Shown piece by piece: positions 26,001-64,000 of a DNA stretch of 64,000 bases. Each line of letters starts with the position of its first letter. The first letter of the stretch is position 1. Source of the stretch: Candidatus Omnitrophus sp. (GTDB lineage Bacteria; Omnitrophota; Gorgyraeia; Zapsychrales; Fredricksoniimonadaceae); contig DYQZ01000001.1 of assembly GCA_020719005.1 (NCBI GenBank), positions 5,779 through 69,778 of the forward strand. Direction: 5' to 3'. The position numbers and the translations under genes were made by a program. The notes beneath the pieces were generated by a model. It searched no databases and had not been told where the DNA came from. It saw only the letters and a program-made list of their open reading frames with translations.

Positions 26001-29000
26001 CACAAAAGGGCCCTGTTAATCAAAAGGCTGTAAATGAAAAGATTGATACTGTACGTCATCAATATGCGCTTAAGATGGCGACAGCTGATCTGAGCATACG
26101 AGGCATGTTTGATCAAAAGGAGTTTGCAGAAGCAAAAGATGAATCTGCAAGGGTCCAGCTTTTGAATAATTTACAGGCCCATGTTTACGCCAATGTGAAT
26201 GGTCTTGGTTATTATACGATGCAGATCGCGTCAGCTGCCAAGCATCAATATATGCAATTGAATTTAGTTGCCATGTCATCAAATGCTTCGGATGCCGGAG
26301 TTAGGCTTGATGAGGATGGTCCTGTTTTGATCAAGGCTGGCCAGGTGATGGATCTAAGCCAGACCACAGCGGATAGCAATCGAAATATTTATGGCAGTTT
26401 AGATGACTGGAATACCATTAAAACAGGCACCGTCGCAACTCCCGTGAGTTTTGTGGCACATACGGATGTTCAAAACACCTCTTTTTGGCAAACCAATCCG
26501 ACCGAGAAGAAATGGGTTGCGGGGGATATTCTAAAACAGGGCGATAAATTAGTTTATTCGCAACAGGTTGCCATGCCTGTGATCTCTGGCGGCAGGACCC
26601 TTACGACGATCAATACCACAAGATCTTATGAATATGATCAGGGCAAAGGTATAAGCGATCCGGATGCGTTTATTGATATAAAGGGTATTGCGGATGCGGT
26701 GGGTGCGAATGCTCAAGATATAAAGATATCAAAACCAAGAGAAATGGATCTTGGCAAGTTTCAAATGATAACTGATAGCAACGGGATCTTGCGCGGGGTG
26801 ATCTTTGCGGGTGCTTTATATAAGGATTTCTTAAGTATAAAGAATAACGGAGATCAGGTTGAATTTGATGTGTATACCAAGAGCGACTTGGCGCATAGTG
26901 ATGGCCGTCGGGATGAAATGCTCGTGCGTTCGCGTGTGGTGTTGGAGCGTAGCGCTGAACAGTTGAAAGTTCTTGAAAGCATCATTGATAATGAAGCCAC
27001 GATCTCGATCCCCCGTAGAGATATCCATCGTGGCGATCTGGTGGACTTCTCTTATAGTGCCGGTGCTGAGCGTCAGACTGTTATCAAGGATCAATTTGGC
27101 GAAAAAGCCAAAGTTGTGATGTTTGGTGAGGATTTTGTCACTCCTGATAAGAAAAACATTGTGATACGTCCTAATGATGATGTGAAGTTTGGTTTGCCGG
27201 ATGGAAAGATCGTTCGTATTCAGACCCTAGATAGTTTTAAATTAGCCAAAGATGGATCGTTAAAACATTTACGCACCGAGCTTGCCGATGATGTTGAATC
27301 GTTCAAGAAAGGCGATGTTCTTGATCGGAGAAATGGCCGGATCATGCGCAATGGAGAAAAGACCGGCGTGATGTTCCACGATCGCGCGCTGATGAAGAAA
27401 GACGGTCAATATCAGATCAGCGCTAAGGATGATGAATTAGTTGAGTTCCTGACTCGTGAAGATATCGGTCAGCTTATTGGTGAGAATTATGTTGTAAACG
27501 CCCAGGATCTTGAGAAAGCTCTTGCAGGACACACAAAAGCGAATGTGTTTGTTCGTTCCATGCTTCAAGATGCGGCCAAAAATAATTCTGATAAAGAAAA
27601 AATAAAGCAAGTCCTTAAGTATGCTCAGGATAACCTTGATCGGCAAAAGGCGGGAATTACTTTAGGACTTCAGGCATTTTCTGCGGATAAGCTTGAAGTG
27701 ATTGATGAGAAGAAATATCAGGGGCCGATGGTATATAGCATCGTTGTTGGGAAAGTATCCGATAAGGCCGCGGAATATTATGCTGATATATTGAGTTTCC
27801 TTGCAGAGTTGTCAGGAGGCAAGACGTTGACGATCACACCTGCGATGGATATCCGCAATTCTGCGGCGCAGTCAACAACAGATCATTTTCATATGGGTAC
27901 AACATTATCCCTCTGGTTTTTGACCGGTGAATTAAACTTCAATGAAGCTGGTGTTTTTGTTCATGAATTATTGCACGAGTGGAACAAGAAACAGGTTAGA
28001 GACGGGAAGCCGGATAGCTTCACACAGGCTCGTATTGAGAATAATACCGCTTTACAGCAGATCGCCCGGGCCATATCAGGTATTTATGACAAGGAATTCT
28101 CAGCGGAAGAGATCTTGACCCTTTTCATTGAGGTTTTTGGTGTGAACAGGTTGATGACCGGCGCACTTCCTGATGCTGTTTTGGAAGCGCTTAAGCCGAT
28201 CCAGCCGTTCATTAAGATGCTTCAGAATAAGGGGAAGAACTTGCCCAAGTCTATCTTAAAGGGTAAGCAGGAAATGATGATCGAAGCCTATAAGGCTGGC
28301 GATATAAAGGAAGCTAAGAATCATGCGACATCGTTGAACACGATGTTCCTAAGAGGCCGCGGGCTTTCACTCAAGGCGCTGTTCACATTCCGTGGGGCAA
28401 AAACCGTGCTCAATGCCATGACCAATGAGCAGTTGGCCGCGAGCGTTTATCAAGACAAGAATACGAAGAATGATGTGGCCGCGATCAGGATCAAAAGCGG
28501 CGGCCAGGACGTGACGCTGACTCAGCCGGTGCAGAATGGTTTAACGGCTGTAGAGTTGCGGGAAACGTTGAGCAAAATGTTTGAAGAATCGGCCAAGGTT
28601 GCTGAAGGCATGGTTCAGATGTATCAGGTGTTTCTGAAGACTAATGGTGATGAAAAACTTGCTTTTGATGAGAAGGCTTGGGACGCGGCGATGCTGGCGG
28701 CGACAACACTGGAAAATGCTAAAGGATATATTAAATCTTCGGTAGATGTTAACGGGCTTGACATGATGCTGGCTGGTGTTAATGAAATGGTTCAAAAGGC
28801 TATTCTTGATGCTAAGGCGAACGAGGAAATGTTAAAGGCTAAACAGGCAGGGGTTGCAACTCCGCAGTCTACGGCCCCGCCAGAGGGATCAAGTGGTCTT
28901 CTTAATCCTTCTGCCCCCAAGATCGACATCGCTTCCGATGTCAACCCCAATGAAATTGTTAACAAGATCGAATCACTTCTTAAGGATAATCTACAAGTTA

Positions 29001-44000: not shown

Positions 44001-47000
44001 CACTTATCAAGGGTTGGATCATGTTTCGCGCGGATGGGTATTTGAAGACGCTTGAAGAAGCGGAGATCGCCGGTGAGTCAACGATGAGCGCGTTCCTTGA
44101 GTTTCGCGGAAAGACCAAGGAAGAGATCAAGGCGTTGTTGCCGAAACTTGTGATGTTCGTCCATGTGCATGAAGATATTGATCCTGATCTGGCAGAAAAG
44201 AAATTGAAAGCTGATATCGAGAAAGCAGAAGCGGCTTTAGCGGAAGCGACGGAAGCGGATAAGCCGAAGAAGCAGGCAGAGATTGATGCATTAAAGGCCA
44301 AAAAGGCGTGGGGCGGGACTGAAGCTAAAGAGATCATCGACATGCTCTGTAGCGACGAGCGCGGGTATGTTCTTAATACGTATGGCGATAAGATCATTGT
44401 TTCGACCAAAGATCTTAAAAAAGGAAATAAGATCGAGAATGATGGCCTGGAATTTGATTTCCCGAAAGATCAGGGGGCGCGCTGGACGGTGAAGACAGAC
44501 AAGTGGAGTATTTGCGGCCGGTTCATTGAAGAATATCTCAAGCGCAATGGCAAGTCTGACGCCATGATCTTTAATCTGGACCGAGATCATTTTTATTTTC
44601 CGACGGATTTTCTGGCTGTTCCGCTGGTGGCCGACAAGTTCACACATGATCCGCGCCTGGGGCTTATGACTATTGCGATGGAGATGAAGACGGGTTATGT
44701 CAGCCCGGCGGCAGAAGATCATCGTGTGGCGGAAGATGTCTGGAACTTGCGTACACTTTTTGCTGAGTCTGAGATCGGGACACACGCATTTTATGGTCCT
44801 GGTATTGTGCGTTGGAATGCGATGCGCCGCATGGGGGCGTTCATGTCGAACATTGAGGATACCGGGGGAGCACAGGAGGCGATCATGGTCGGGTATCGTG
44901 CGGAAAATTCACCGCGCATGAGCATTGGCCGCCCGCGTGAGATGATCCCCGGGTCGCTGTTGGCATTCCAGAATCGTTTCGGTGGGCTTGTTATCGACGA
45001 GTTCCTTTCGGTCCACTTCCAGATGACGATGAGCACGGATGAACTTCACTGGACGGAAAAAGCAACGCTTCTGCAGAATTTTGATTTCTATATCAATAAG
45101 CCGCTGGTGCCGCGTTATAACCTGATGATCTTCATCTTTGCGTTCTTCCTGAACTTCACTCCGTTCAGTTCATTGGCGTGGCCGCTGTTGTTCATCGGGA
45201 TCCAGTATATCCTTGCTGAGGCGATCACGGCGGGCGGCGTCAGGATTTATACGTCCAAGTATGGTTTCTGGAGGGGGTATGCGATGTATATGAAGCGGAT
45301 GTGGAGCTTGGTGTTCACATTCGGTTCGCTGGTCCCGCTTCATGATGAGAAGGTGCGCAATGCCCATAAGGGAACTGCGGGTATTTTCTCAAGCGGTGTT
45401 AAGGATATCGTTTATCCGCGCCTGTCTTTCAGTGAACTTTATGATCAGTATCGTACGTCGATCTATTGGGGTCTTCTTCTGGGTGCGATCGCCTTGATGG
45501 CGCCGTTCCATCCGGTGGCGGTGTTGAGCCAGATCTTCTTCTATGTATTCCCGGTCGTGTTCATTTTCGCGCCGTTCATGAAAAATGGTAGATCGAAGCC
45601 GATGGTCTCTGGGTCGATTTTTGGAGCGATCGCGGTAGCGGTGGTTGTTTATTCGCTGGGATATATCACAGCGCCGGTGTTCCTGGCGGCTATGACGGCG
45701 GGGCTGGCGGCCATTATTGTTGCCGGTGTCAAGGCGCAGGAGAAATATACCACCGGCATCACGATGGGGCTTTTGGCCATACCGTATGCCGTATTGGATT
45801 TTATGACGCTGTTCATCCTTAGCAATAGCGACATGCATAAGGATAAGATCAAAGTAGATATCTTTAAGAATGGTTTGGCATTTGTATGGAAGAAGCACGC
45901 TAAGGATTCAAAGCCGATGGCGTGGTATCAGAAGATCGTTAAGAGCAAGAAGCAGACACAGCCTCAAGCGGCTGCCGTGAAGGTGGAGCAGGCCACGGGT
46001 GCTGTGGGCGCTGGTAATGCTCCGGCATTGGATCATGGCAAGGATGGCGTGAAGAAGCAGGAATCTTCCAAAGATAGCAATCCTCCCCGTGCAGGCCCTG
46101 ACGTAAAGTCTTCTAATAAAGTATCAGAAGATCCGAAGAAGTCTCAAGCCCCACCGTCGTTGGCCGCTATTATTGGTCTTGAGATCGCCCGTCGTATTCA
46201 TGCGCGTGAAGTTAAAGAAGCGGAAAAAGTCGCGAAGCAGTCGCAGGCGGTTCAGGCGAGCGGTAAAAAGATCGAAAAGTTCTATCTTCCGACACCTCAA
46301 AAAGAATTTATCAAGCGCATTGAAGAAGCGGCCTTACAAGTGAGCCGTCGGCATGAATATAAGGCGGCATTGGTTAATACGTGGGCGAATAGCGAAGAAG
46401 AATACAAGGCTACGATCGAGAAACTCACCGAAGAATTTTCACTGACTATTTTCCAGAGCATTGCGACAGCTGTTGGTATCGTTTATAGCGACAAGACAAC
46501 CGCCAAAGAATTAGCTGATCAGATCCGAAAGATAGATCTCTCCAAATACAATACTATCGGCAAGCTTGCGATCTACAGCGGCCCGCCTGGCGGAGGCAAG
46601 GGCGCGGTGTGGGAGCGTTTTGAAGCGCTGTATGGCGATATGATACAGAAGTTCACCCTTTTTCATACGCGTAATATCCGTGACGGCGAGACGATGGGGA
46701 AAGAATATCATTACCGCAATCCTGAAGCGTTGAAGAAACTGGAAGCTGAAGGAAAGATCATTACAGCATCTGTCAACGGGCAGTTACAAGGATTGGCGAC
46801 GATTTCTTTCAAGGATGATTATGATTATACGGACCCTCAAAGCGGCAAGAGACATGAAGGATCTTCTGAGGTGGTTGGCCTGGATGCTGTTTTTAATGGC
46901 GTAAAGATCGTTGTTCTTGAATGCGGGTTGGCATGGTTTGAGGCGTTGCATGATAAGTATGGGGACGCGTTGACGAGTATCTTTATATCACCGTTTAGCG

Positions 47001-50000
47001 ATGCAAGCATTGATACGGCTGTAAGTGATATGAAGGTTGTGTTTAAGGCCGCTGTTGGTCTTGAGATCGCCAAGCGTATTCATGCGCGTGAAGGCAAGGA
47101 AGCCAAGGTGGTGTTTGATGAGTCTGATGCGAAGCAGAAAAAAGGCGAGCCGGTAACAAAGTTTTATATTCCAACTCCGCAGAAAGAATTTAATAACCGC
47201 ATTAATGAAGCGGCCCTTCAGGTGAGCCGTCGTCATGAATATCAAAAAGCTCTGGTTAATACGTGGGCCAGCAGTGAAGCTGAATATAAAGCAATGATCG
47301 ATCAGTTGACCGAAGGGTTTGCGCTGACGATCTTCAGGAACATTGCTGATGCTGTAGGTATTGTGTATCAAGAGACAACGACAGCAAAAGAACTGGCTGA
47401 TCAGTTGGGTAATATTGATCTTTCTCAATATGATACGATCGCGAAGTTTGCGATCTTTAGCGGTCCACCCGGCGGCGGTAAAGGTGCTGTGTGGGATCGT
47501 TTTGAAGAGTTGTATGGGAAGATGACAACAAAGTTCGTTTTTTTTCATACACGTAATATCCGCAAGGGCGAGGTGATGGGAAAGAATTATCATTATCGCA
47601 ATCCTGATGCATTAAAGAAGCTGGAAAGTGAAGGCAAGATCATCACCGCTTCTATTAATGGTCAAGCGCAGGGATTGGCGGTAACGAGTTTTGAAGATGA
47701 TTATTCCTATGTTGATCCGCAGTCGAATGAAAAACATGAGGGAAGGGCAAGTGTTGCTTGTTTGGATCAGGTATTTAAGGGCAATAAGATCGTTATCCTT
47801 GAATGTGGTTTAGCCTGGTTCGAGGCGCTCCACAAGAAATATGGAGATGAGCTAACAAGTATTTTCATATCACCCTTCAGTGATCAGGAATTGGCGTGGA
47901 CAGAGATGTCGGTTGAAGATCGCAGGAAGTATGAAGCTTATGATCATAGAATTCTTGAGCGTGCGGCAGCGTTAAATAATAGAAGCGCTGCAATATTAGA
48001 TAGAATTGCGCACCACAAGAAATTTTCACACGATGGTAACGCGTTGCCTTTCTTTGGAACGACGGTGGTTTCTTTTGTTTCAAAGAATTCGGAAGCTTTC
48101 TTACGTTTGGTCGCTTTTCGTGATCGTCTTAAACAGGCTTTAGAGCGGGCTGGTTTGTCTAAATTTATGGCTTGGACGGAAATTGATTCTTTGCATATGA
48201 CGGTATGTGATATTGATAAAGAGCTTTCTGCTGAAGGGTTTGATGAGCATGTGATAAGGCGTAAAGAAGAAGCGCGCGAAGTGTTCAGTAAGATAAAGAA
48301 TATCACACCTGTTTCTGCGCAGATGAAGGGGCTTGGTTATAAGCTGGCCTTAACGGCACATGTTTTATTTAATGACCCCAAAGAGTTGGATAAGATATTT
48401 GAGGTCGAGGATTCTATAAAAAAGGGCACGAGTGAGCCTAAACAACAACGTGATTTCACAGGTCATATTACATTGGGTTATCCTGTTGGTGTGATGACGA
48501 TGGATGAACTGAATAAATTATTTGATATCTTCAAGCAGTTCTCGAACGATGATCTTAGAGATATTGTGTTTGATAATGTCACCTTTACACGATTCAGTAA
48601 TATGAATACATATGGAAGAGAGTTGTCCCTTGACCTTAATTCTGGTGAGATCCTTTCTTATGGTAAAGATCATGAAGTGTTGCTTGATATTTTTAATGGA
48701 GATCACGGCAAGCTTATTCATGCTCTCGGAGTTTGGAAAAAAGAGTTTAAAGATGTTTTAGGTGTCGAGAAGTCTTTTGAACAGTTGACGACTTTTAAAG
48801 ATGATGATCATCCACAAGGAACAGAATATTTACGTATCATTGATGGGCAAGATCAATATACCGGTGAAGTTCGTCCCAGAGATCTTTGTCATGCGCAGGG
48901 CACAGAGCATCGTGCCGTTGCGGTTATTCTTTATGATCGTGAGGGGCGTATTCTGGTGCAGGTGCGCTCGAGAAAGAAGAAGTTCTTTCCTGGCATGAGA
49001 GATGTGTCTGCGGCGGGTCATCTTGCTTTGGAGAAAGAATATTTGGATGGGGCCATTAATGAAACAGAGGAAGATGTCTTTGATAGCCGACATAAGCTTG
49101 ATCCTGATCGTTTTCAATACGTGGGAACATTTCCTGCGCATCATCGAAATGAGAAGATGGGCTTAAACGATAAAGAGATGGTTGTTTTGTATATGTATCA
49201 GGTGAGGGATGAAGAGAAGGCTCGCGTTGCAATTCAGGCATCTGAAGTAGAGGCTGTCGAATGGGTTTCTTTTGAGAAAGAGCTTTCGGATTGGCAGATG
49301 TGGTATACAGCGGTTGGTAATGGACATGAGCAAGGGAAGTTTGCCAATATTCAAGGGATGGCGGTTGGGTATGCCATTCTTGGAATTGATATTCTTGCCA
49401 ATGAACGTATCGTTGAAAAGATGGTGGATGTTGTAAAAAGGGGTCTTTCTATTAATTCCATGGCGTTTGCTGGAGAAAATAAGTTGGTGTCAACGGATAA
49501 ACAGGGTGCTGTTGAGACGCGGGCAGGTCCTGAAGAGATAAAAACACCTGCCAAGACTGCGGCTGAGTCAAGCCGTACGGCGCCACCCGTGGAGAAGGAA
49601 TTGCCTATTGTTCCTGCCTCATGCGTTAATTATTCCGCACGTTATGTTGATCTGCAAAAGATGTTTGAGACGCTTCGTGAATTGTTATCCTTCAAGAGTC
49701 CGACCGGCCAGGAAGGCCAGGTGCGTTCTTATATTGAAGCCTGGTTCCAGGCACAGCATATTCCGGTTACGGTTTTATATAAAGGGGACGCTCCCAAGAA
49801 CCTTGTCGTTGAGCTTGCGGCGACGTCGGGTCAGGAAAGCGTTGGGGTCATTGCGTTCGATGCGCATATGGATATTTCCGATAATAATGCTGCCGACCTG
49901 GTGTTGGATCGGAATGCTCAGAGAGTGATCGCCACAGGTAGGGATAACGGGGCCAATGGTCTTGATGACAAGATCGGTATTGCGGTGATCCTTGAGATGA

Positions 50001-53000
50001 TGCGGGCACTGCAGGAGAAGAATATTCCGCATGGCCGTATCCGATTGTTCTTTACCGCAGAAGAAGAAACTTTTGAACATCGGGGTGCACTTGATATTAA
50101 GACCCAGCACCCAGATCTTTTAAGAGATATTGCTTTGATGATACCTGTCGACGGGCATCGTTTGCAGAAGAATGGCCGATATGAAGATATTTTAAGCGGG
50201 GATGCTGGTTCTTTGGCGGTCATGTTCATTAATCTTGTAGATGGGGCTTTGGAGCGGTTGGTCGTGCTTGACGCCGGGCGCGCGCTTGGTATTGAGCCGG
50301 CAGTCTTTAAACTTAAGGCGAATGCCAGCGGTAATGAAACTATTTGGGGAGCGGCTGGAATGGCTGTGGCACATGTTCGTGCTAATTATGCGACGACAAA
50401 TGACAGGGCTAGTGTTGATCATGCGGATTATGCGGATATTTTGAGTTTAGGTGATTGGCTGGTTGAGATCGCTCGTCGAGGAGTAGAAATGTCAGAAGCC
50501 CAGTTTCTTAACGTCCCCGTCGTTACCCTCAAAGAAGAAACCCGCGTTGCGTTAGATGAGATGCGTGCGGATCATTTGAATAAGACCAAGAACACAACGC
50601 CTGCCCGGTATCGTGCGCTTTCTTCCATTGTTACGACGAGCATTGCCCGTGAACTTAGGAAGCACGCAGATCCTGCCAAGACCGTGATCGTTTTCCCGTG
50701 GCGTTCGGCCATGGCCATGAGCGAAGCGTTTGAGCGTGAAGGGTATCGTTACTTTTGGCACATCGGTGTCAAGCGCGATGAGAAGACGCTTGAGCCGTCG
50801 ATGTATTATAAGGGCAACTGGCGTATGCCGGAGGGTGTTGATGTGGCGGACCTTGAGGTTGTGATCGCGGACCCGATGTTTGCCATCGGCGGAAGTGTTG
50901 CCCTCACGATCGATATCTTGATGAAAGAAGAAGGCATCAAGCCTTCGCAGATCACGGGCGTGCATGTCGTCTCTGTCCCGGAAGGTATCAAGAACATCAC
51001 CGCGAAATATGCGATCAAGCGGATCATCACCGGGTCGCTGGATGAGAAGTTAAATGAGATCGGTTATATCGTTCCTGGCCTCGGTGATTATGGCGACCGT
51101 TATTTTGAAGGCATCAGCTGTGAAGAGGTCCGTCATTGGAGGAATCTGGACATTCTTGACGGGAATGATCTGAAGGCGCTTGAAGGGAAGATATTTGGGG
51201 CTGAGGCAGGGGACGATGTTGTGAAGGCATATAACGGCATTCTCACCCCTGATGAGATCGCGGCTCTTGCGGCGTATAAATCTAATACTGTAAAAGTAGA
51301 ACAGAAGGTGCTCGCCCCGGCGCTGGCCATGATCGACGGTCTGGTTTTTGAATTACCAGAGGCGCGGTGCCTGGATCTTGGTGTGCTCACGCGCAATCTT
51401 GAGGTTTGTTTAATTTCAATGCAGGGAAGGGCTCCTCCGAGTGCCACTATTGAGGACGGCATTCTTTATCTATTTTCATATGAGGATAATAAAATAACGC
51501 CAACGCTTCTGGCGCGCATGATGGTTCATGAAGTTGTTGAGGATCAAGCCCATCGCAGTATTTCAGGAATTTCTAACGAGAGCGCCCATTCTTTGGCCAT
51601 CGATGCCGAGAGATCCTTTTCCGATCTTTTTAATTCCCACGAGGTCTTTGTTGCGGATTATGACGGGACATTGCATAACTTTCAGCAAGGGGTCCCGGGG
51701 AAGGTGCGTCAGGCGCTCATCCATAATGTGCTGAGTTCTGGCCGTCGGCTGGTTATCGCGACTGGGCAGGCCCCGGACACGTTTTATACAAATATTTTTC
51801 CTCAGCTTGATCTTGCCGGGGCTATGCGTTATGACGGTCAGGTCTATATTCTAGGTGAGGTCGGCGGTTGTGCTCGGCTTTTACGTTCTGATAGAACGCT
51901 TGTTGATGATCCGGATCTTTCTTATGCGCCGATGAGTGAGGATTTTCGCTCCGAGGTCGCTCGTCAACTTGCGGGTATTCGCGCTGATCCGGCGATCGGT
52001 CTTTCTGATTGGGAGGTGGGGGTTGTTCAGCGCCATTCCATGATCTCGTTGCAGATACATTCTGAAGCGGCACACCGTAAAGCGCAGATGATCACGGAGC
52101 GTCTGCAGGCGGCTCTTGCAAGCTCGGGTTTTTATGTGACTAATGTGGTGGGTTGGTTCATCGATATTTCTTCAGCCAGCAAGGGCATTGGTGTTAAGCG
52201 ATACCTTACGAAATTCGGGCTTTCCCTTGAGGATACGCTCGTGGCTGGCGATAGCGGTAATGATATTTCCATGCTTGCCTTGGCAAAGGAAGGGGCCCAG
52301 GCGGTTTTTGTCGGATACGACGGGGCGATCTTGCCGTTGGATATCCGTGATAAGCTTGCGTATGTTCCGACGCCTGAAGCATTGGCTGATGTTATTTCTT
52401 CCAGATTTGTTCAAAAAGAGAGTGCCCCCGCTTTGTCGTTGTCTGGTTTTTGTGGCAACTGTACCGAGGCGATCAAGAAGGCATTGCCAGGGCTGGTCAT
52501 GGCCGGTAAGGTTGAGGTTCGGCGCTGTGCAGCGCTCGGCCTGCTTGATCTTGATGGGGACAAGGTTGATTTTCTTGAATTTGATTACAATGAGATCCCT
52601 GAAGCCATCCGTTTCAATGAACTCAGCAATATGCAGGAAGTTGCGATCTTTGCGGCTGAATATTCCAAGCCAGGGCATTTTTCGATCCATGTTTCTTCTG
52701 AAGCCCGCCGTCGATTTGATGCGCTTTTTCCCGTGGAAGATCCTGAGGCACGTAAGACCGCTCTTAAAGTGATCGCGCTTCATGAAAAAGTTGAGCTCGA
52801 CGGGATGAGCCATGCCAATGCCGTAGAATTCCAGAAGACGGTTGAGGGCTATAAGGTAGTTGCCGAACGCCTGGAGCGTTTGCAGTCGCTGGAGCGTGTG
52901 ATCATCCCGCTTGCGCATAACAGTGTTGATGTCTCTAATATCAAAGCCAGGATCGTGTTCGCGGAACGTCACAGTTTGACAGAAGAACAGCGTCAGATCC

Positions 53001-56000
53001 TTTTTGGTCTGCGTAATCTTGAGCTTATTGCCGCTGCGGTCCGTAAGATCGACAGTCATGTCAAGCGCGGGCGTTTTTCCTGGTTTTTTTCGGCAAAGCC
53101 TGTGTGTGCGGCTGAGGTGATCGAGGCTGTTGTGGAACGCCTCATCGCCGAGCGTTCCCGTTTGTCTGCTACCGTAGGGATCCTTGAATTGTTCGATGCG
53201 GTCATTACGGATGAGGAAAAGGCTATTCTTCAGGAGTGGGGCATTAATCCCGCCGGAGAAGTTGTCAAGGTTCCTCAAGGGCAGGGCACGATTTATGATC
53301 TCATCAATAAACATTTGGATGATAATGACCTGCTCTCGTATGCACCGATGATCGGTGATATGTCCGATATGATCGAGAAGAAGAAAGAACGTTTTAAAGG
53401 TGTTCCAGGACGCGCCGGCGCTTTTTATAGGGTTTTGACACCATTCTTGCGCAATATGGCCAAGCATGACCCAAGCCGTGTCGATCAGTACAAAATGTTG
53501 AGCGAGGGATTTTTGGAGAAGGTTATTAGTGAAGATGCCTTGCCGATGGTCAAGTGGTGTGAGGCGGGTGTCTTGGATGTCATTGCCACGTTCCGTACCA
53601 AGATCCAGACGGGAGAGGCGCGGATCGCTGATATGCGCACCAAGCTTTTGGAGCCTGATGCGGACCGTATACAATTGGAAAGAAGTATTTTGATGGTCCA
53701 GCAGAATACCGTCGGTCTTTTCATGGAACTTACGCAGATCTATGAGGATATCCTTTGGGAACTTGTTCTGGATTATCCCTATCAATTGGATTCTACACGC
53801 CGGATGTTGCGCGAGAATATCGTTCTGGCGCAAGTTTCCAGGATGGCGGATACACTTGCCGCTTTAAGCGCGCGCCAGGTTGAGGCGGATGAAGAGCCGC
53901 TGATCGCTCTTGAAGTAGAGCAGGCCCGTATTTTTACGTGCATTGCCATAGAGGCTATTGAACAGTTGAAAAAAGACGGCAGTCAGGATCTAAGCTACCG
54001 CAGAATGTTGGAACAGTCGGTGGATGCGGCGATGGAAGAGTTCAGGGCGCGTCTTCTGACACGTTTTGTTCCTTTGTATCGCGCACAAGATGCAGGGATG
54101 ACCATTGAACAGGCTGAAGAGAAAGTGTTGCGCGAGGCCCGTAATTATTACGATCATTTGACTGATTATATCATCGAAGAATCTGAAAAAGGGCTGGGGA
54201 CCACGGACCCTCACGGACTTCAGGCGGCACTTTTATATCATGATGTTCCTACTCCCATCAAATTCATGCGGACTGTAAGCGGTGCGCTTAAGGGGCGTCT
54301 TAAAGTGGTGCTGAATACACGCGGCTCGACGAACAATCATTATGCGCTGGCGGCCAAGGCTAACAAGATCCCTGTTCTGATCCTGGACCCTTCACGCCCC
54401 GATGACTTGAAAGATCTTCGGCGGTATCAGGAAGTGTTGATCCAGGACCACAGGGTTTATATTAATCCAAGCGCAAAGACACGCGATCGGGCAGATGGTG
54501 AGGAGCGTCGTCGTGCGGTTTATCAGGAATATTGCCGGTTTTGGGCAGCGCGTTCTTCGGTCGGCGCTGCGGCTAACGCGGATGATGCACAAGCGATCAC
54601 GGATGCTTTCAAGGAATTCATGGCGCGCAATATCGGCCTGGTGCGCAGTGAGAATTTGTTCCATGGTATTTTACCGGTCTCGATCACTGAGGCGATGATC
54701 GCGGAAGGAATACCGCAAGGCACGAAGATCTTTGATATCGGGGCGATGATCGAGACGCCGGGTGCCGTGGTAGATCTGGATAATATTCTTTCGCTGGCCG
54801 CATTCGTTAGTATTGGTTCGAATGATCTTACGGCAAAGACCTACCGTATCGATCGTGCGAGCGTTGAGCAGGGGGCGCGTGTTTATGGGCGTGTGATGCC
54901 TTTGGTGTTAAGGAAGATCCGGACGGTCATTGAAAAAGCGAATGCCGCTGGCGTTGACGTTTCGATCTGCGGCGACCTTGCGGCCATGAGGCGTTTTTGG
55001 ATCGTGTGGGCGTATTTGCGTCATCAAGGCGTGCGTGTGCATTTAAGCATGCCGGCGCACGAGATCCCCGAGTTCAAGGCGAGGATCAAGGCGTTGGAAA
55101 TATACCAGGGTTCTCATGCTGTCGTTGGGGCATGGGATATGATCGATAAGATATTTGCTCTTCCCGAGGATGAAGTTGCCGCGGATGACGAAGCGTTAGC
55201 CGTTCTTTTGGATAAAAAGCTTTTGCGGCTCGATCAGATCATCAGGAAGCGTCTTCGGATCGGGTCACTTCAGGATACAAAAGGTCCTTGCACCGCGGCC
55301 GATAGTCATAATGGAAAACTTTATTCCTCATTTCTTCCTTTGATCGTCCTGACGATAACGCTTCAGGCCGGTATTATGTGGCTTGCTGTTGGTTTAGGTG
55401 CATTTGTGTTCTGGAAGGTCTATAAGAATTTTCTGCGTTCCCGGGCCGGGCTTGGACAGCCTGCGGCTCTTCGGCCTTGGCTTATGGGCATGCTCAAGGT
55501 GGCGGCGCGTTTATCGGAAAGGATCTTTTGGCCTTATAGTTCAGCTTTCAAGCGGGCAACTTCTTTTGATCTTTGGACAGTTGCAGGAACGATCAGGCGC
55601 AAAGAGGTGCGAACACTGTTGTTCCAGGTCGCGGGCATGATACGCCGTGATCGTGAAGTTTATCTGGCTTCAAAAGCTGCGGCTGTTCATTTGCCGTCTT
55701 GTTTTGGCGTTTATTTGGCACGTATTTTTGCAGGTGTTATCCCTATTGCGGTTTATCGTAAGGTTGATTCTTCCAGTCCCTCTAATGGTGCTGATATAAC
55801 CTGGCTTAGCAAAAAAGGGTTATTGGATAAGAATGGTTTTATGGAGGAGTTTGTTGATCCGCGCGGAAAGTTATCCTGGGGTATGGCCGGCTTTTATGCG
55901 GATATCATCGAGATCTATTTGTTGAATACGCATGATCATACCCGGATGGTGGCAGAGATGGTGCGTTCTTATCTGGATCATCAAAAGTCTGTTTCTCATA

Positions 56001-59000
56001 AAGAATTCTGGCAGTTGATCGGCCGCTCCTCGTCACAGCAGATGGCACAATACCGCCAGGATGTTGAAGCCATGATCCACAACAGTCGCTTGAATAAGGT
56101 TGGGCCTGTTGCTTTTCACCAGAAGATAAAGCAGTTTCTTCTTATCCGCTTTGAAACAAAGGGTTTTGTCATTGAGAATGAGCTTATCGGATGGCTCTAC
56201 CGGACGTCGCAGGATAAAGGCTTCGAGTCTTTGGCTGATGAACTGGTGCGTTTGCTCGACGTTGCGCGCAATGTGGGTTATGCGATGGAACATCATGTTC
56301 GCGCGGGGTTGAAAATGTCAGGATTGAACGAATTGATGCCGCGTCATATTGTGTTTGCTTATGAGCCTCGTCAGGGAAAGGGTGCGGCTGTTTTAAACAG
56401 CACCTACAGGCTTAATTATTTCAGGTATTCCCTTCACGGGTTGGAGCAGGCAGAGCTTTTGGAAATGCTTTTGTATGATATTTATTTTCATATCATTTAC
56501 GCGGATCAGATGTTGGTCGGATCCTGTGCTTATCAGGCGTCCCGCCCTGGTGCCAGTAACATGCTCGAGGATGAACATTTTTGCACGGCGGCGTATCCGG
56601 TGGAAACTCTTGAGGGAGTGGATCTGGTCCGTCTTCAGGACCGTTTGGCCAAAGTGATGGCTGAACATATAGCGGCCCGGCTGGCGTTTGGCAAGGATGT
56701 TCAGATCGCGGGTGCACGTAGCAGGATATTCATGACGATCAGTAAGCTCAAGAACGGCGCTTTGCTTAAGGATCTGGCACTTGAAATGGCATCTCGTTAC
56801 GCTGTGGTGCAGACGGAAGGATATAACACTATTTTGGCGTCGGAGATCGCACAACTTAACGTATTTCTGACAACAAAGGCTGTGTATAGTGATGACGCCT
56901 TGGATGTTGAGGCTTATATTGCATTGCATGTGCAGAAGATGGCGGAATTCTTTCAGAAGGTGGAGTTCAAGAAAGATGTTCGTGTGAAGCTCGTGCATAA
57001 AAAGTTCTTTCTGGCCAGAGGCGGGCATGATGAGCGGTCGCTGGGAGAAATGAACATGGAAGGCCAGATCACGATCCCGGTGAAGTATTTCATGACCACG
57101 CGCGGCTATAAAGAGGTTCTGGCCCGTACTGCGGCCATGCTCAGCATGTATCGTTTCCGTCATAAAGTGAATGATCAGCAGACCGTTATTCATGATATGG
57201 CCAGGCAGATGATGCTGTCTTCCGATATCAGGGAACTTTTAACATTGATGTTCACGCTTAATGGCAGCCGCATGCCAGAGGCTCGTGCTCAGGCTCTTTT
57301 GGATGGATTTGATGAGGTAGAGGCGCGGGGGGCTTATGATATTGTGACGTTGGAGGATGAGCTGTCCCGTCATCTTAACGAGCTTGGGTATCAATATATT
57401 GCGATAGGTAAGGATGAAAAAGGTTTCCGGATGTCTTTTCTTTCTCCAGCGGCTATCGGAAAGATGATCCAGCAAGCGTGGGAAGCGTCCCGGAAAAATC
57501 CTCATGCGGAAGTTTTTCCTTCCACGGGTTTTGCCATTCGTCCTACTGTTGGCGGGCGGGCGATATTCCGAACATTCGATCCCGTATCTCCCGAGAACTT
57601 TGTGCACTATCATTTGCGCGGATTTATTCAGGCTGGAGAAGGCGCGGATCAGCATACGATCGTGATGCAGGGGTATGAACCGCGCAATCCCGATCTTTTC
57701 ATGAAATATCACGGATGGTTCGGGATCTACACGACGTCGGATCTGATGGGATTTCTGCGCAATGATATGATCCTGACAGCCCGTCGCTTTATGCTGTGCG
57801 GTGTGTTTTCCGGGCACACCAGGGTTGTGATCCAATATATTGATCAGCACGGCAACAAACAGCAGGAGATCGTCAGCCTCGTCACGCTCGCGCGCGAGGT
57901 TATTTACCGCCGGCATGATGTGCCCAGGCGCAATCATCCTGATTATGTGCCACAGTCGCACATCCTCGCTACCGGCGAAACACTTTCCTGGTATAACTAT
58001 TTTCTGATGAAGAAAAGATTGGGGCGGCGTCTTTCAAAGAAGGAACAAAGGTATGTTCAGCTTTTTGAACGCATGACCCCTGATGATAAAAGGGATTCTT
58101 TGCTCACGAAGATCTGCCATGATTTTCAGGTCATTGACGAAAAGACCTTGCTGGCTATACCGGTCATGGGGAGAAAAGATCTTCGGCTAGGGGATATTAA
58201 TATCCGTTGGAGAGTTATTTTCCGCCAGTTCATTAAGAAATGGGCACACCGTCATGTTTTTGTTTTATTTACGGTTGAACGCCCTTCTTCTTTGTTAAGC
58301 AGTATACAGGCATTCTCCGGCCTGCCAGGATCAGATGCAACAATGCCCGAACTGCCTCCGTCGATCCGGCCTCGTGATGAAAAAGAACATTCCAGATTTA
58401 ACGAGTCTTTCAAGTCTTTGGCACGCATCCTTTCTCCTACAAAGGTCATGTGGATCATGCCCATGTATAACGAGACATGCCGTCTTTTACCAAGAACAAA
58501 GACCAATCATCCTGGTGAAGATGCTTTGCGTGTTAAGGTGCAGGAGATGTTGGTGGCGCAGAAGATCAATCCTTTATTACAACAGCGCCTCTTGGCCGTT
58601 GATGACGGCACACCGGAATTGACATCGGCAGCGACGGTAAAAGATCTTTGGGAGAAGATCCGCGAGGAATATTGCAAGGAAGGTATAGAGCTTGACCCTG
58701 ACATGGTCCAGGTCATCGATGTTTCCCCCGAAGAAAAGAAAGAGATGGGAAGTAAGAAAGGCTGGGCAGTCCTTAAAGCCATGGCTTTTGCCGCGAAGGA
58801 CGGCTGGGCGGATATGATCGGTTTTACGGATACGGATATTTCAACGAATTTGATCCAGGCTCCGCTTCTTGTCGAGAAGCTCCAGCAGGGCGCGGGCGCC
58901 GCGATCGGGTCGCGTTGGATGCGCGGGGGAGAAGTTCGGGATATTTCGATCAAGCGGATGCTTTCGAGCAAAGGCTTCCTTTATTTGGTCACCTTGATCC

Positions 59001-62000
59001 TGCTTCCGCTCTTTGGCATTCATGATACGCAGCGCGGCTTTAAATTGTGGCGCAAAGAGATGATCCCGCTTTTTATCAAGTATGCCACCGAACACGGACT
59101 TGCGTTTGATACGGAACTCTTGTTACTTACACGGATGACGGGGAAGAAGATCATAGAAGTGCCGATCGCTTGGTTTGATTCTGCGGAAGCTAGCACGGTC
59201 GCGCTCGGCGTGGAATGGAAGGTCATGTTGCTTGCGGTCATCAAACAGGCGCGTCATTGGCTTAATCCTTTGATGTGGATGAAAGTTCGCTCTGCGATGA
59301 AGGACTCGGCGCGGTCGGTGCCGGATGAGAAGAAGGCATCAGCTTGGGCAGTGGGTCTTGAGATATTGCGTGTGGTCGGGATCTTCGGCTGGAAAATAAA
59401 GAGATTGAGGGTTGAGCACAATGTTACGCTCGCCGTGAATTTCCTGCGGTCGATCGGAGAAGAGGCGCGTGCGAAGGTGATCGAAGAAATGGCGCGTACC
59501 GGGCGTGTGCGGGCAGGTCCGTTCAAAGGGTTTTTGGCAACAACGTATCGCTGTTTGAATGGTAGTGAATATATCCTTCTTTCTGATCTTCCTTTATATG
59601 CCAAGCGTGGCTGGTTAAGTGCATGTGAAATGAATGCGAGTGTTGTGCACGAGAGCGGTGCGCTTTCAGCGTTCAGGCTTTCCCATGAAGATAATGTTAT
59701 TTTTGAGTCATGGTTCCGTCGGGCTTTTAATGTTGCCGCGTTGAAGCCTGTTGAGATCATAGATAATTTTACCGAGACACTGATCGAGCATCAGAGCGCT
59801 TTTGGGACAGGCGTTGTTGATCTGCGTCAGGTGCCGGAGAAAGTGGATGTTATTGTTGTCGGCGATCTGCATGGCCGCATTGATACGCTCGAGTCTATTT
59901 TAGGTCATCGGATCAAACGCGTGGTTGCTTTTCAGAAAGAATTGGAAGAGTCTGTTCTTGAGAGGGTCAGCTATGGACAGGCAGTTCTGCTCTTTTTAGG
60001 GGACGCGGTCCATGCAAGCCCACAGCGTGAGCAGGTGAGCAGGGCCGTTGAACAGGCCGCTTTTCAAAAAGGCAGAACGCTTACGGCATCTGAAAAAGAA
60101 GCCATCATCGCACCGTATTTCATCAATGCCGAAGCTTCTTTCAAGACGATGCAAAGGATCATGACACTTAAGATCATGTATCCGCGGCATGTGTATTATC
60201 TCTTGGGGAATCACGATCTCCTGGATTATCCCTGGGAAAAATTCACCGATGGTGTTGAAATTGATCAGACGAAGAATTATGTAGAGTATTTGCGAAGCGT
60301 TATCGGGGACGCGGGGGTTGAGAAATATAAAGAAGCCATGCGTTTGAGCCCGGTCCTTTTCTTGGGCAGGAATATCGTGGCGGCTCATGCCGGTCCAGTG
60401 AAAGGCCCTTGTTCGCTCGATGAGATCGGTCGGATCAATACGGCCTCGCTCGTCGATACCCGCATGCGGGACCTGTTGTTCAGCCGTTATTACAGGTTGT
60501 CATTAGTTGAGAGCAAAGATTACATGTATGACGAGTCTGATGTTGACGGCTTCTTGCGTGCTATTGGTTATGATCCGAAGATGACATCGTTCATTGTTGG
60601 CGATGCCCCGTTCGCAGGGAGCGCGTTCTATCATCAGGTTTTCTTGAATCATTATGTTGTTGCCGCAGCCAAGCGTGAGGCCGGGTATGCACTTTCCCGT
60701 GGGGGGCGTCTGGAGTTTGTGGTAGTTGAAGAATCTTCTTCTTTCAGGGTGTCCTCCTTTTTGCCCGTGTCTGTTGCAGCAGTGGCGGCATTCTCTCCTC
60801 GGGATATTCATGTACATGATCTGGTGGGTTGGGGTGGGATGCTTGTTGGTACCATGCTCGCGCTATTCTTATTGCGTAGAACAGATCGCCGGGAAGCTGC
60901 GAAAGAGGATCTGCCGAGAGATGGTTTTCGTACTGTTGATGAAGCGGCGTGGTATGCCATGGAGAGCATTAGCGGATCAACCCTTCCAGGATCCAAGGAC
61001 AGCGTTGAATGGGCGGGATGGATATACAAGAACGATGAGGGGACATATGCTTATACGTCCGCCCAGAAAGCAGGTAGAACGGGAGGCATTCTTGAGGGCA
61101 AGCCTAAGAACACAATGGCAGTGTATCATTCGCATTGTGCTTCCGGTCTTTACAGCGAATTCTTTTCTGATATGCAGACAGACCCTGTTACAGGAGAGCG
61201 CTTAGGGGATAAAGATAGCGCGCGTGCGCATCGCATTGATTGTTATGTTGTTACTCCGTCGGGAACAAAAAGGAAATACGAACATTTAGGGGAAGATGTT
61301 TTCGTTCTTTCCAATAAAGGCAAGAGCCAAACAAAAGACATGTTCGCCCGTCTGGATGAGTGGGGTATTGCTGATCCATGGATCGGTTTCTTGATGTCAC
61401 CTCAGGTGTGGATGAGGATGTTCGTCCGCCGGTGGTTGATCATACAGCCGGTCACAGGGGATCAGCATGGCGCTGCGACATCCATACCCCGGCAGATGCT
61501 GTTGGACAAGACAATACAATATAACGAGCGTGACCTGGAGATCTCTTGGAAGGCCAGAGAAGCGTTGATAGGGAAGACCGATCTGCATTGGAAAGATCCG
61601 GTCGTCTTAAGCAAGTCTGCCGCGACGGACGCGCTGATCGATCAGCTTGTTGAGAAGATAAGAGGGCATGAATTTGATGAAGGGGTCCCGTTGGCAGAGA
61701 TCGTTAAGACAAAGGGCAGGATCTTGTGTGAGTCGTTTGAATTCGTGCTGAGGGAGATATTAAAGAACGCTTTTGATGCGTATGCCATGACTGATCTGAA
61801 GTCTGAGACCGTGAAGGGGCCGGTGAGGGTGCGGATCTTTAGGCAGGGAGCTGACCTTGTCGTTGAAGTATCAGATAACGGCGTCGGGTTCGTTGAGGGC
61901 GTGGTCAAGGCAAAGATCTCAGGCAAGATCATTTTTGGCGGTAGAGGCATAGGCCTTTTGCGTTCGAGGATCCTTTGCCAGGTGCGCGGCGGGGATGTAA

Positions 62001-64000: not shown

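What the first reader, a model, noticed from the sequence alone, without database searches (positions are those of the whole stretch)
58440..62520. Glycan-assembly block: GT2 glycosyltransferase, PPP phosphatase, GHKL ATPase and PglC-like phosphoglycosyl transferase near the end of the window
GT2 motifs (IP.YNE, VDDG, DxD, GFK.W) sit at 58.45-59.05 kb. A calcineurin-like GDxHG/GNHD/HGG set sits at 59.86-60.4 kb. HATPase_c N/G1/G2 boxes sit at 61.75-61.96 kb. A very clear PglC-type initiating phosphoglycosyl transferase (re-entrant helix + KxYKxRSM + DE dyad + GPRP) sits at 62.16-62.44 kb. An initiating PGT and a Dpm1-like GT2 are the first two steps of lipid-linked glycan assembly. Fusing them with a phosphatase and an ATPase sensor-like domain suggests an integrated, possibly regulated, glycoconjugate pathway inside the giant protein.
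Basis: partly seen in the sequence, partly recalled or inferred. Interest (0 to 1): 0.7.

Follow-up and report, generated by a model that had tools for sequence, protein, structure and literature searches.

The report
Glycan-enzyme modules in Omnitrophota giant gene

Summary
The window holds one stop-free frame, nt 11048-64000 (at least 17,651 aa, cut by the window end). Its relatives, its N-terminal C39-like peptidase and its type II secretion neighbours mark it as an Omnitrophota giant multi-enzyme gene, a published kind.

All four domain calls hold:
- a Dpm1/ArnC/GtrB-like GT2 (below Pfam's cut-off, but confirmed by PDB sequence match and fold);
- a PPP-like metallophosphoesterase;
- a GHKL ATPase;
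- a monotopic phosphoglycosyl transferase (PGT) core with all catalytic motifs.

- The GT2 is closest to polyprenyl-monophosphate glycosyltransferases, so it and the PGT are parallel users of the lipid carrier, not steps one and two.
- Each module recurs in other Omnitrophota giants with different neighbours. PGT is never seen beside GT2 or the phosphatase (0 of 7 PGT-centred and 0 of 29 GT2-centred fragments). GT2-phosphatase (2 cases) and GT2-GHKL (1 case) pairs do recur.
- The GHKL domain lacks a His-box.
- This phosphatase copy alone has lost a metal-binding His.

It is a new member of a known kind, of moderate interest.

The parts
11048..64000 (+). Giant stop-free reading frame of at least 17,651 aa. 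The likely start is ATG 11069. It runs off the 3' end of the window. Everything below is a module of this one frame.
   Evidence: Six-frame stop scan and translation. Pfam inventory along the frame: Peptidase_C39, NAGPA, guanylate kinase, 2H phosphodiesterase, NUDIX, M28, UPRTase, HAD, PEP-utilizers_C.
58388..59302 (+). GT2 module (aa 15781-16085). It is a Dpm1/ALG5/ArnC/GtrB-like polyprenyl-phosphate glycosyltransferase catalytic domain. It ends in two helices and has no transmembrane domain.
   Evidence: 5mlz matches at E=2.2e-8 and 9.5e-10 with a profile. AF2 pLDDT 88. Foldseek top 17 hits are DPMS, ArnC and GtrB. VDDG, TDxD, IGSR, DTQRGFK and FDTELLLL are invariant in 9 modules. Pfam PF00535 is only E=0.029.
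59348..59755 (+). Copy 1 of an unannotated repeated module (aa 16101-16236). It has a HEAT-like helix pair, then RAGP, GFLAT, HExGA and HxxN motifs. The predicted fold is zincin-like.
   Evidence: 43% identical to copy 2. Family of 20 domains in 12 proteins. No Pfam or NCBIfam hit at E up to 10. The fold evidence comes from copy 2.
59813..60751 (+). PPP-like metallophosphoesterase module (aa 16256-16568). Motifs are GDLHG, GDAVH, GNHD and HAGP. The last metal-ligand His is replaced by Asp (VGDAP, nt 60596-60610).
   Evidence: Pfam Metallophos E=1.2e-7. Profile A2 hits only PPP phosphatases in the PDB, best 2.7e-9. Motif census of 37 relatives.
60818..60877 (+). Hydrophobic helix (aa 16591-16610, LVGWGGMLVGTMLALFLL) followed by RRTDRRE. 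It is a candidate transmembrane segment between the phosphatase and the JAB domain.
   Evidence: Kyte-Doolittle 19-residue mean of 1.73. Flank charges.
60944..61282 (+). DUF4329 / Tox-JAB-2 domain (aa 16633-16745) with the H-S-H motif at nt 61127-61135.
   Evidence: Pfam PF14220 E=1.5e-9, above cut-off. DUF4329 is equated with Tox-JAB-2 (conserved E, H[ST]H, S, D) in PMC3482391. Motif position.
61742..62059 (+). GHKL ATPase module with N, G1 and G2 boxes and a shortened ATP lid. No upstream His-box.
   Evidence: Pfam HATPase_c E=7.8e-9. Alignment of 8 family members. No HisKA hit.
62159..62647 (+). Monotopic phosphoglycosyl transferase core (Bac_transf). The candidate re-entrant helix is at nt 62159-62254, with a Pro break at 62228-62230. 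The Asp-Glu dyad is at 62378-62383 and GPRP at 62429-62440. The C-terminal half is divergent.
   Evidence: Pfam E=2.9e-31. NCBIfam polyprenyl glycosylphosphotransferase models, about 1e-30. WbaP and PglC PDB hits. Fifteen invariant columns in a 20-sequence alignment.
62942..63334 (+). Copy 2 of the repeated zincin-like module (aa 17299-17429). The weak Pfam HEAT_2 hit lies in its N-terminal part.

Best explanation
The interval is a stretch of about 1,650 aa in an Omnitrophota giant multi-enzyme membrane protein. It is built from independently shuffled modules.

Two of the modules are membrane-interface glycosyltransferases that most likely both act on polyprenyl phosphate at the cytoplasmic face:
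- The GT2 would make a polyprenyl-monophosphate hexose, as DPMS, ALG5, GtrB and ArnC do.
- The PGT core would make a polyprenyl-diphosphate sugar, as PglC and WbaP do.

They are parallel initiators that could feed envelope or surface glycosylation. They are not consecutive steps.

Between them lie:
- a PPP-like phosphoesterase, here with a substituted metal ligand;
- a transmembrane helix;
- a Tox-JAB-2 domain;
- a GHKL ATPase without a His-box.

Two copies of a zincin-like module punctuate the stretch.

Shown here: domain identities, motif conservation, folds of two modules, and recurrence of each module in other giants with other neighbours.

Inferred only: substrates, cytoplasmic orientation, and functional independence of the neighbours.
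For: Giant frame and context:
- The frame is continuous and at least 17,651 aa.
- Upstream genes are T2SS E and F, a pseudopilin and TraU. There is an N-terminal C39-like domain.
- All close relatives come from Omnitrophota MAGs, mostly inside frames open across whole loci.
- This matches the published giant-gene descriptions.

Domain identities.

Catalytic motifs retained:
- PGT: R, K, M, DE, PQ and GPRP are invariant across 20 sequences.
- GT2: VDDG, TDxD and DTQRGFK are invariant across 9 sequences.

Shuffling:
- GT2 modules that are 41-51% identical over the module sit next to NDK, methyltransferase, LOG, Pkinase, HAD, DUF218 and FkbM domains.
- PGT modules of the same subtype sit next to GH130, PTS_EIIA_2, methyltransferases, UPF0489, DUF218, GGDEF, Pkinase, sigma-70 regions and RamC_N.
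- No PGT occurs in 29 GT2-centred loci. No GT2 or Metallophos occurs in 7 PGT-centred fragments.

Orientation:
- All recognisable enzymes in the C-terminal third use cytoplasmic nucleotide substrates.
- A monotopic PGT needs both of its flanks on the cytoplasmic side (family knowledge, summarised in PMC10312794).
Against: Some pairings are not random-looking:
- GT2 is followed by Metallophos within 130-580 aa in L029 and P0017.
- GT2 is followed by HATPase_c within about 70 aa (local HMM coordinates) in L021.
- GHKL sits next to the zincin-like module in P0021, and that module sits directly before a PGT in P0027.

Free-standing relatives of the GT2 have a Bac_transf match nearby in 12 of 51 loci. 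The two families are therefore linked in ordinary genomes.

Topology is unresolved:
- There is a single strong transmembrane helix between the phosphatase and the JAB domain.
- If it spans the membrane without a partner, the GT2 and phosphatase would lie on the opposite side from the GHKL and PGT.

Most comparison sequences are contig-truncated fragments. More distant co-occurrence inside the same giant cannot be excluded.

No activity or expression data exist.
Confidence: 0.6

Rival explanations
1. The block is an integrated, regulated lipid-linked glycan pathway. The PGT initiates, the GT2 acts next, and the phosphatase and GHKL ATPase regulate the flux.
For: - All four domains are adjacent in one polypeptide.
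- GT2-Metallophos and GT2-HATPase_c pairs recur.
- The GT2 and Bac_transf families are neighbours in 12 of 51 non-Omnitrophota loci.
- Small PGTs are known to be controlled by phosphorylation and by response regulators (PMC10312794; PMC12802240 abstract).
- The TM / loop domain / weak TM / GHKL layout is sensor-like.
Against: - The GT2 is of the polyprenyl-monophosphate type. It is a parallel reaction, not a second step.
- PGT is never found with the other modules in 7 PGT-bearing and 29 GT2-bearing giant fragments.
- The GHKL has no His-box.
- The phosphatase here has lost a conserved metal ligand.
- No flippase or GT-C domain was detected in the multi-TM regions.
Confidence: 0.15
2. Polyprotein cassette. 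The two zincin-like modules (nt 59348-59755 and 62942-63334) are processing proteases or recognition sites. The segment of about 1,060 aa between them (PPP, TM, JAB, GHKL, PGT) would be released as a separate membrane protein, and the GT2 would belong to the preceding cassette.
For: - The module recurs 2-3 times per long protein at spacings of about 450-1,300 aa.
- Each copy is preceded by a conserved P-L-P-G-Q-P motif.
- H114, E115, N129 and E133 are invariant and H126 nearly invariant.
- West-Roberts et al. already raised cleavage of giant proteins by embedded peptidases, naming C39 and S8.
- A JAB-type metalloenzyme domain also lies in the segment.
Against: - The second His of HExxH is Ala in nearly all members, so the module may be a pseudo-protease or a docking domain.
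- Only two copies occur in 17,651 aa, so it is not a general punctuation of this protein.
- No cleavage data exist.
Confidence: 0.15
3. Decaying or non-catalytic modules. The domains are relics kept as scaffold in a rapidly evolving surface or membrane protein, and do no enzymology.
For: - The phosphatase has a unique His-to-Asp change at a metal ligand.
- The GHKL ATP lid is shortened relative to its relatives.
- The PGT lacks the loop after RxM and the canonical PGITGLxQV and DxxY motifs.
- The GT2 falls below Pfam's cut-off.
- Published work stresses long branches and divergence of giant-protein domains.
Against: - The frame has no stop in 53 kb.
- Core catalytic residues of the PGT and GT2 are invariant across relatives that are only 23-56% identical on average. 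That indicates purifying selection on the active sites.
- The unusual PGT features are shared by a whole subfamily, including small free-standing members such as P0067. They are a subtype, not decay.
Confidence: 0.1

Closest known systems
Omnitrophota giant ORFs, 'multi-enzyme metabolic cluster' class (West-Roberts et al. 2023, bioRxiv 10.1101/2023.11.21.568195; Nielsen and Lui 2026, bioRxiv 10.64898/2026.06.07.730766; Seymour et al. 2023, PMC10066038)
   Same: - A frame longer than 10,000 aa.
- An N-terminal C39-like peptidase beside transmembrane helices.
- Long stretches with no annotation.
- A C-terminal string of unrelated enzyme domains (NUDIX, HAD, HATPase_c, PEP-utilising, HEAT-like).
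- Type II secretion genes next door.
- Relatives only in Omnitrophota MAGs.
   Different: - Term searches of the main texts of the two giant-gene preprints found no mention of Bac_transf, GT2 or Metallophos. They stress GT5, GT1 and starch-synthase domains instead.
- No SecA_DEAD domain was seen in the part of the frame inside the window.
Small monotopic phosphoglycosyl transferases (PglC of Campylobacter; the catalytic core of WbaP)
   Same: A hydrophobic N-terminal helix with a Pro break, the K-x-R-[ST]-M motif, the Asp-Glu dyad, GPRP, and about the right core length. Bac_transf E=2.9e-31.
   Different: - It is embedded about 17,000 residues into a polypeptide rather than standing alone. It is an extreme case of the 'bifunctional' fusion class.
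- The loop after RxM is about 10-15 residues shorter.
- The C-terminal PGITGLxQV and DxxY motifs are replaced by PGF..L....G..KG.QPVEL. A subfamily found in other giants and in a few small proteins shares this.
Polyprenyl-phosphate glycosyltransferases of family GT2 (Pyrococcus DPMS, GtrB, ArnC; Dpm1/ALG5 type)
   Same: - GT-A fold, with the best structural and sequence matches in the PDB.
- VDDG and DxD motifs.
- From my own recollection, not tested here: the DTQRGFK motif resembles that of ALG5-type enzymes.
   Different: - No C-terminal transmembrane helices, only two helices after the catalytic domain.
- It has an insertion after the VDDG strand and scores below Pfam's GT2 cut-off.
- It is part of a giant protein. 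Its nearest free-standing relatives, at about 28% identity, are proteins of about 250 aa in Patescibacteria.
PPP-family Ser/Thr phosphatases (PP1, PP5, BSU1, calcineurin)
   Same: GDxHG, GNHD, H[AG]G and a conserved Arg. The family profile hits only PPP enzymes in the PDB.
   Different: - GDxVDRG is replaced by GDAVH family-wide.
- The window's copy has Asp instead of the final metal-ligand His.
- There is an insertion of about 27-29 residues after GDAVH.
Minimal zincin metallopeptidases (M35 aspzincins, selecase-type minigluzincins, Acel_2062-like) as the nearest fold for the repeated module
   Different: - The motif is HExGA, not HExxH.
- The module carries an N-terminal HEAT-like helix pair and an invariant RAGP strand.
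- No sequence family covers it.

Membership tests
Monotopic PGT (Bac_transf, PglC/WbaP core) | Family HMM hit above the curated cut-off | tested here: met
   PF02397 scores 108.8 bits against a cut-off of 27, E=2.9e-31, covering profile positions 2-175 of 179.
Monotopic PGT (Bac_transf, PglC/WbaP core) | Catalytic Asp-Glu dyad plus the K..R[ST]M and GPRP motifs | tested here: met
   LDEWPQ, KVYKIRSM and FGPRP are present. They align to the WbaP motifs. D96, E97, K74, M78 and G113-P116 are invariant in 20 sequences.
Monotopic PGT (Bac_transf, PglC/WbaP core) | N-terminal re-entrant (not spanning) membrane helix with a helix break | tested here: inconclusive
   There is a 32-residue hydrophobic stretch (KD 2.66) with Ala-Pro at aa 17060-17061. 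Whether it is re-entrant or spanning was not modelled and cannot be decided from sequence.
Monotopic PGT (Bac_transf, PglC/WbaP core) | Canonical C-terminal nucleotide-sugar-side motifs (PGITGLxQV, DxxY) | tested here: not met
   They are replaced by TPGFLSLLDV and ESVE. The replacement is shared by a giant-protein subfamily.
Monotopic PGT (Bac_transf, PglC/WbaP core) | Transfers a sugar-1-phosphate from a UDP-sugar to polyprenyl phosphate | not testable with these tools
   Needs an enzyme assay.
Polyprenyl-phosphate GT2 (DPMS/GtrB/ArnC, Dpm1-like) | GT2 family HMM hit above the curated cut-off | tested here: not met
   PF00535 scores 14.8 bits against 23.3, E=0.029. The homologous modules in L029 (43.2 bits) and L021 (27.5 bits) do pass.
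Polyprenyl-phosphate GT2 (DPMS/GtrB/ArnC, Dpm1-like) | GT-A fold closest to known Pren-P glycosyltransferases | tested here: met
   AF2 pLDDT 88, pTM 0.88. Foldseek ranks 1-17 are DPMS, ArnC and GtrB, with TM-scores of 0.49-0.58. The only PDB sequence hit is DPMS.
Polyprenyl-phosphate GT2 (DPMS/GtrB/ArnC, Dpm1-like) | DxD metal/nucleotide motif and the VDDG strand | tested here: met
   TDTD and VDDG are invariant in 9 modules.
Polyprenyl-phosphate GT2 (DPMS/GtrB/ArnC, Dpm1-like) | C-terminal transmembrane helices that anchor the enzyme | tested here: not met
   Only two helices follow the catalytic domain. Hydropathy there is 1.35-1.38, below the 1.6 threshold.
PPP-family phosphatase | Metallophos HMM above cut-off, and PPP enzymes as nearest solved relatives | tested here: met
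   32.8 bits against 21.5. All of the 60 listed PDB hits (of 98) to profile A2 are PPP Ser/Thr phosphatases, apart from one entry named FAP15; best 2.7e-9.
PPP-family phosphatase | Full signature GDxHG, GDxVDRG, GNH[DE], plus all metal-ligand His residues | tested here: not met
   GDLHG and GNHD are present. GDxVDRG is GDAVHAS. The last ligand His is Asp in the window but His in 36 of 37 relatives.
Sensor histidine kinase | HATPase_c with N, G1 and G2 boxes | tested here: met
   36.4 bits against 26.4. Motif positions.
Sensor histidine kinase | DHp/HisKA domain with a conserved phospho-acceptor His | tested here: not met
   No HisKA hit. No conserved His upstream of the N box in an alignment of 8 family members.
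Tox-JAB-2 (DUF4329) | Family HMM above cut-off and the H[ST]H motif | tested here: met
   38.3 bits against 28.6. YHSH at aa 16693-16696. Family definition from PMC3482391.
Omnitrophota giant ORF | Frame longer than 10,000 aa, N-terminal C39-like peptidase with TM helices, T2SS-like neighbours, relatives in Omnitrophota | tested here: met
   compared.
Omnitrophota giant ORF | Divergent SecA DEAD helicase domain (present in most, per West-Roberts et al.) | tested here: inconclusive
   Not found in the 17,651 aa inside the window. The frame continues beyond the window.
Zincin metallopeptidase (for the repeated module) | Zincin fold | tested here: inconclusive
   [not shown]
Zincin metallopeptidase (for the repeated module) | HExxH metal-binding motif | tested here: not met
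   The motif is HE[SI]GA. Ala at the second-His position is nearly invariant. H126 is nearly invariant and E133 invariant on the next helix, so they might substitute.

The most novel reading that the evidence does not exclude
The unannotated module of about 115 aa ('RAGP...HExGA') brackets the phosphatase-to-PGT segment and recurs 2-3 times in other Omnitrophota long proteins. It may be a variant zincin that cuts giant polypeptides, or marks them for cutting, into membrane-anchored cassettes. Giant genes would then be bacterial polyproteins. The PPP-TM-JAB-GHKL-PGT segment would be one released unit, whose PGT helix fixes its orientation at the cytoplasmic face.
Probability: 0.12. Interest if true: 0.8.

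Novelty: new member of a known kind. Interest (0 to 1): 0.35.

Why it matters
If these modules are active, at least some Omnitrophota giant proteins carry lipid-carrier glycosylation initiators. [quoted passage not shown]

That argues against reading the enzyme-rich parts of these proteins as mostly extracellular. It also gives an internal topology marker for proteins that topology predictors handle poorly.

The work defines a distinct PGT subtype and a distinct Pren-P GT2 subtype, both recurrent in giant proteins. These are small, expressible targets for first biochemical tests on proteins that have had no assayable function.

The repeated zincin-like module gives a concrete, testable candidate for how such polypeptides might be processed.

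Tried and rejected
- Looking up the upstream 443-aa gene to find the source contig: not on record.
- Whole-protein self-BLAST returned only the self hit. Chopping the frame into 300-aa pieces was needed.
- Scans of genome contigs and metagenome contigs with the phosphatase-to-PGT segment found no relatives. No orthologous giant could be compared, and the frame could not be extended past the window.
- Single-sequence PDB searches for the phosphatase, GHKL and DUF4329 segments gave nothing significant. A profile was needed for the phosphatase.
- A word-indexed homologue search with the repeated module found nothing. Its relatives came only from the exhaustive HMMER scan.
- The AFDB Foldseek library was unavailable.
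- The idea that the GHKL module is a classical histidine kinase was rejected: there is no His-box.
- The idea that the multi-TM regions hide a GT-C or flippase was not supported. There was no Pfam hit at E of 0.01 or better.
- Reading the hydrophobic stretch at aa 15971-15991 as a transmembrane helix was rejected. It aligns to a catalytic-domain segment of DPMS.
- Opposite-strand ORFs overlapping the interval were treated as by-products of the long frame.


Full report
**What is in the window**

A six-frame stop scan shows one stop-free stretch on the + strand from nt 11048 to the window end at 64000. It is at least 17,651 aa, with a likely start at ATG 11069. The finding (58,440-62,520) is aa ~15,797-17,157 of this frame. 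ORFs listed on the other strand across the interval are short and overlap it.

Genes upstream encode T2SS E and F proteins, a PDDEXK nuclease, a pseudopilin with a tail-collar domain, and TraU.

Pfam tiling of the giant frame gives the following inventory:
- an N-terminal Peptidase_C39-like domain next to a cluster of hydrophobic helices;
- about 8,000 aa with no hits;
- then NAGPA, a P-loop domain, guanylate kinase, 2H phosphodiesterase, NUDIX, M28, UPRTase, HAD and PEP-utilizers_C;
- then the block in question.

Yes.

- Bac_transf scores E=2.9e-31, HATPase_c 7.8e-9 and Metallophos 1.2e-7. All three are above Pfam's curated cut-offs.
- NCBIfam polyprenyl glycosylphosphotransferase models score about 1e-30.
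- WbaP and PglC structures match the PGT at 6.8e-18 to 4.6e-12, with the DE dyad and GPRP aligned.
- The GT2 is the weak one. PF00535 gives only E=0.029, below cut-off, and an NCBIfam dolichyl-phosphate hexose transferase model gives 4.4e-4.
- I therefore tested the GT2 independently. Its only PDB sequence match is Pyrococcus dolichyl-phosphate mannose synthase, at 2.2e-8 alone and 9.5e-10 with a profile of nine modules.
- An AF2 model of the GT2 (pLDDT 88) has DPMS, ArnC and GtrB as its 17 best Foldseek matches.

Three things in or beside the interval were missed:
- a DUF4329 domain (E=1.5e-9), which Zhang et al. define as Tox-JAB-2, a JAB-fold domain with an H[ST]H motif. HSH is present.
- a strong hydrophobic helix at aa 16,591-16,610.
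- a repeated module between the GT2 and the phosphatase, and again after the PGT.

**What kind of gene is this?**

All close relatives of the GT2 module are partial proteins from Candidatus Omnitrophota MAGs.

A scan of GTDB genomes gave 29 Omnitrophota loci with the module at 32-54% identity. Nearly all are inside frames that stay open across the whole 15-21 kb retrieved.

The literature describes exactly this:
- giant ORFs in Omnitrophota with N-terminal C39 domains, many transmembrane helices, T2SS neighbours, and abundant HEAT, HATPase_c, NUDIX, HAD and glycosyltransferase domains;
- a 'multi-enzyme metabolic cluster' class, predicted to be membrane-anchored;
- prevalence across several classes of the phylum.

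Term searches of the main texts of the two giant-gene preprints found no mention of Bac_transf, GT2 family 2 or Metallophos.

**Module by module**

*PGT.*
- In a 20-sequence alignment the window keeps all 15 invariant positions: R, K, M, G, LR, DE, PQ, GPRP and PG.
- It belongs to a subtype with a shortened loop after RxM and a PGF..L....G..KG.QPVEL tail in place of PGITGLxQV and DxxY.
- That subtype occurs in five other long representatives, in two further giant frames from metagenomes, and in a few small proteins.

*GT2.*
- VDDG, TDxD, IGSR, DTQRGFK and FDTELLLL are invariant.
- No transmembrane helices follow the catalytic domain.

*Phosphatase.*
- A profile of the module and its free-standing relatives hits only PPP Ser/Thr phosphatases in the PDB.
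- The family has GDAVH in place of GDxVDRG.
- In 37 aligned modules, the window's copy alone has Asp where the others have the last metal-ligand His.

*GHKL.*
- The N, G1 and G2 boxes are conserved.
- There is no HisKA hit and no conserved upstream His. The ATP lid is shorter than in relatives.

**Is it a functional unit?**

I tested this from both ends.

GT2-centred test:
- In the 29 Omnitrophota loci there is no PGT within 10 kb either side, by tblastn or by HMM.
- Pfam on the 1,240 aa downstream of the GT2 in eight loci gives DUF218, FkbM methyltransferase, HAD (twice), TPR, or nothing.
- HMM and Pfam do find a Metallophos just after the GT2 in L029, and a HATPase_c just after it in L021.
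- P0017 has GT2 and then Metallophos 577 aa later.

PGT-centred test:
- An exhaustive HMMER scan of 1.84 billion representatives with the phosphatase-to-PGT segment returned 34 long proteins.
- Each carries one kind of block enzyme module. The exceptions are P0017, P0021 (three GHKL copies plus the repeated module) and P0027 (PGT plus the repeated module).
- PGT neighbours elsewhere are GH130, PTS_EIIA_2, methyltransferases, UPF0489, DUF218, GGDEF, Pkinase, sigma-70 regions and RamC_N.
- The five-domain order is therefore not conserved. Only the GT2-phosphatase and GT2-GHKL pairs recur, and rarely.

In favour of some link: among 51 non-Omnitrophota loci with a free-standing relative of this GT2, 12 have a Bac_transf match (tblastn) within 0.2-8 kb.

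**Mechanistic reading**

DPMS, GtrB and ArnC-type GT2 enzymes load a sugar onto polyprenyl monophosphate. PGTs load a sugar phosphate onto the same lipid. This is established family knowledge; the PGT classes are summarised. The two modules are thus parallel initiators, not steps one and two.

A monotopic PGT needs both flanks in the cytoplasm. The neighbouring enzymes all use cytoplasmic nucleotides. The simplest picture is a membrane-tethered, cytoplasm-facing enzyme string.

One problem remains:
- The single strong helix at aa 16,591-16,610 would flip the topology unless it has a partner.
- A weakly hydrophobic stretch (KD 0.79) lies 122 aa before the GHKL N box.
- Two of seven homologous GHKL modules have a clear transmembrane helix at about that distance.
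- This would put only the JAB domain outside, in a sensor-kinase-like layout. The evidence for it is weak.

**The repeated module**

- The two copies are 43% identical.
- Iterated HMM searches find 20 copies in 12 proteins, often 2-3 per protein at spacings of about 450-1,300 aa. Each is preceded by a P-L-P-G-Q-P motif.
- No Pfam or NCBIfam family covers it. Only a weak HEAT_2 hit falls on its first helices.
- AF2 gives pLDDT 92.5.
- The motif is HExGA, with H114, E115, N129 and E133 invariant and H126 nearly invariant.
- It could be a variant metalloprotease, a pseudo-protease or a docking unit.

**Verdict**

The object is a new member of a described class, Omnitrophota giant multi-enzyme proteins. 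It has some content not reported in those papers' main texts: a PGT subtype, a Pren-P GT2 subtype, a PPP-like module family, Tox-JAB-2 and a zincin-like repeat. Interest is moderate.

Noticed in passing
[not shown]
   Followed up: yes
window 60944-61282: A DUF4329 / Tox-JAB-2 domain, a family otherwise known from RHS and T6SS polymorphic toxins. Its H-S-H motif is intact. It sits between a strong transmembrane helix and the GHKL module.
   Followed up: partly
window 60596-60610: The phosphatase module has VGDAP where 36 of 37 related modules have V[GA]H[ST]P. A conserved metal-ligand His is Asp only in this copy.
   Followed up: yes
window 46166-47038 and 47048-47914: A tandem duplication of about 290 aa inside the giant frame (aa 11707-11997 and 12001-12289), about 70% identical. 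It is far more similar than any other internal repeat. The second copy contains the guanylate-kinase-like hit.
   Followed up: no
window 251-10480: Upstream genes encode a T2SS/T4P ATPase (T2SSE), a platform protein (T2SSF), a YhcG PDDEXK nuclease, a pseudopilin fused to a phage tail-collar domain, and TraU. This matches the reported linkage of giant genes to type II secretion-like genes. Two further ORFs (251-1432 and 9149-10480) have no Pfam hit.
   Followed up: partly
window 11927-12163: A Peptidase_C39-like domain (E=1.4e-8) lies about 290 aa into the giant frame, between an N-terminal hydrophobic helix and a cluster of 4-5 helices. The same is described for other giant Omnitrophota proteins.
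   Followed up: no
window 12700-35800 (aa ~550-8250): About 7,700 aa with no Pfam hit at E of 0.001 or better and almost no hydrophobic helices. A NAGPA phosphodiester glycosidase domain follows, flanked by single helices.
   Followed up: no
whole window: GC skew is positive in every 2-kb bin (0.08-0.30) on the coding strand. It includes the upstream genes, so it is not peculiar to the giant frame.
   Followed up: no
L065 4582-5869, L053 2322-3729 and ten other non-Omnitrophota loci: Free-standing relatives of the GT2 module (about 250 aa) in Patescibacteria and Actinomycetota have a Bac_transf match (tblastn) within 0.2-8 kb in 12 of 51 loci. In two of them the match lies within 400 bp, on the opposite strand.
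   Followed up: partly
L081 (metagenome contig Ga0247841_10003950), frame around 10001-10552: Another giant frame carrying the same PGT subtype also contains sigma-70 region 2 and region 4 domains and a RamC_N domain. This is an odd mix for a membrane enzyme string.
   Followed up: no
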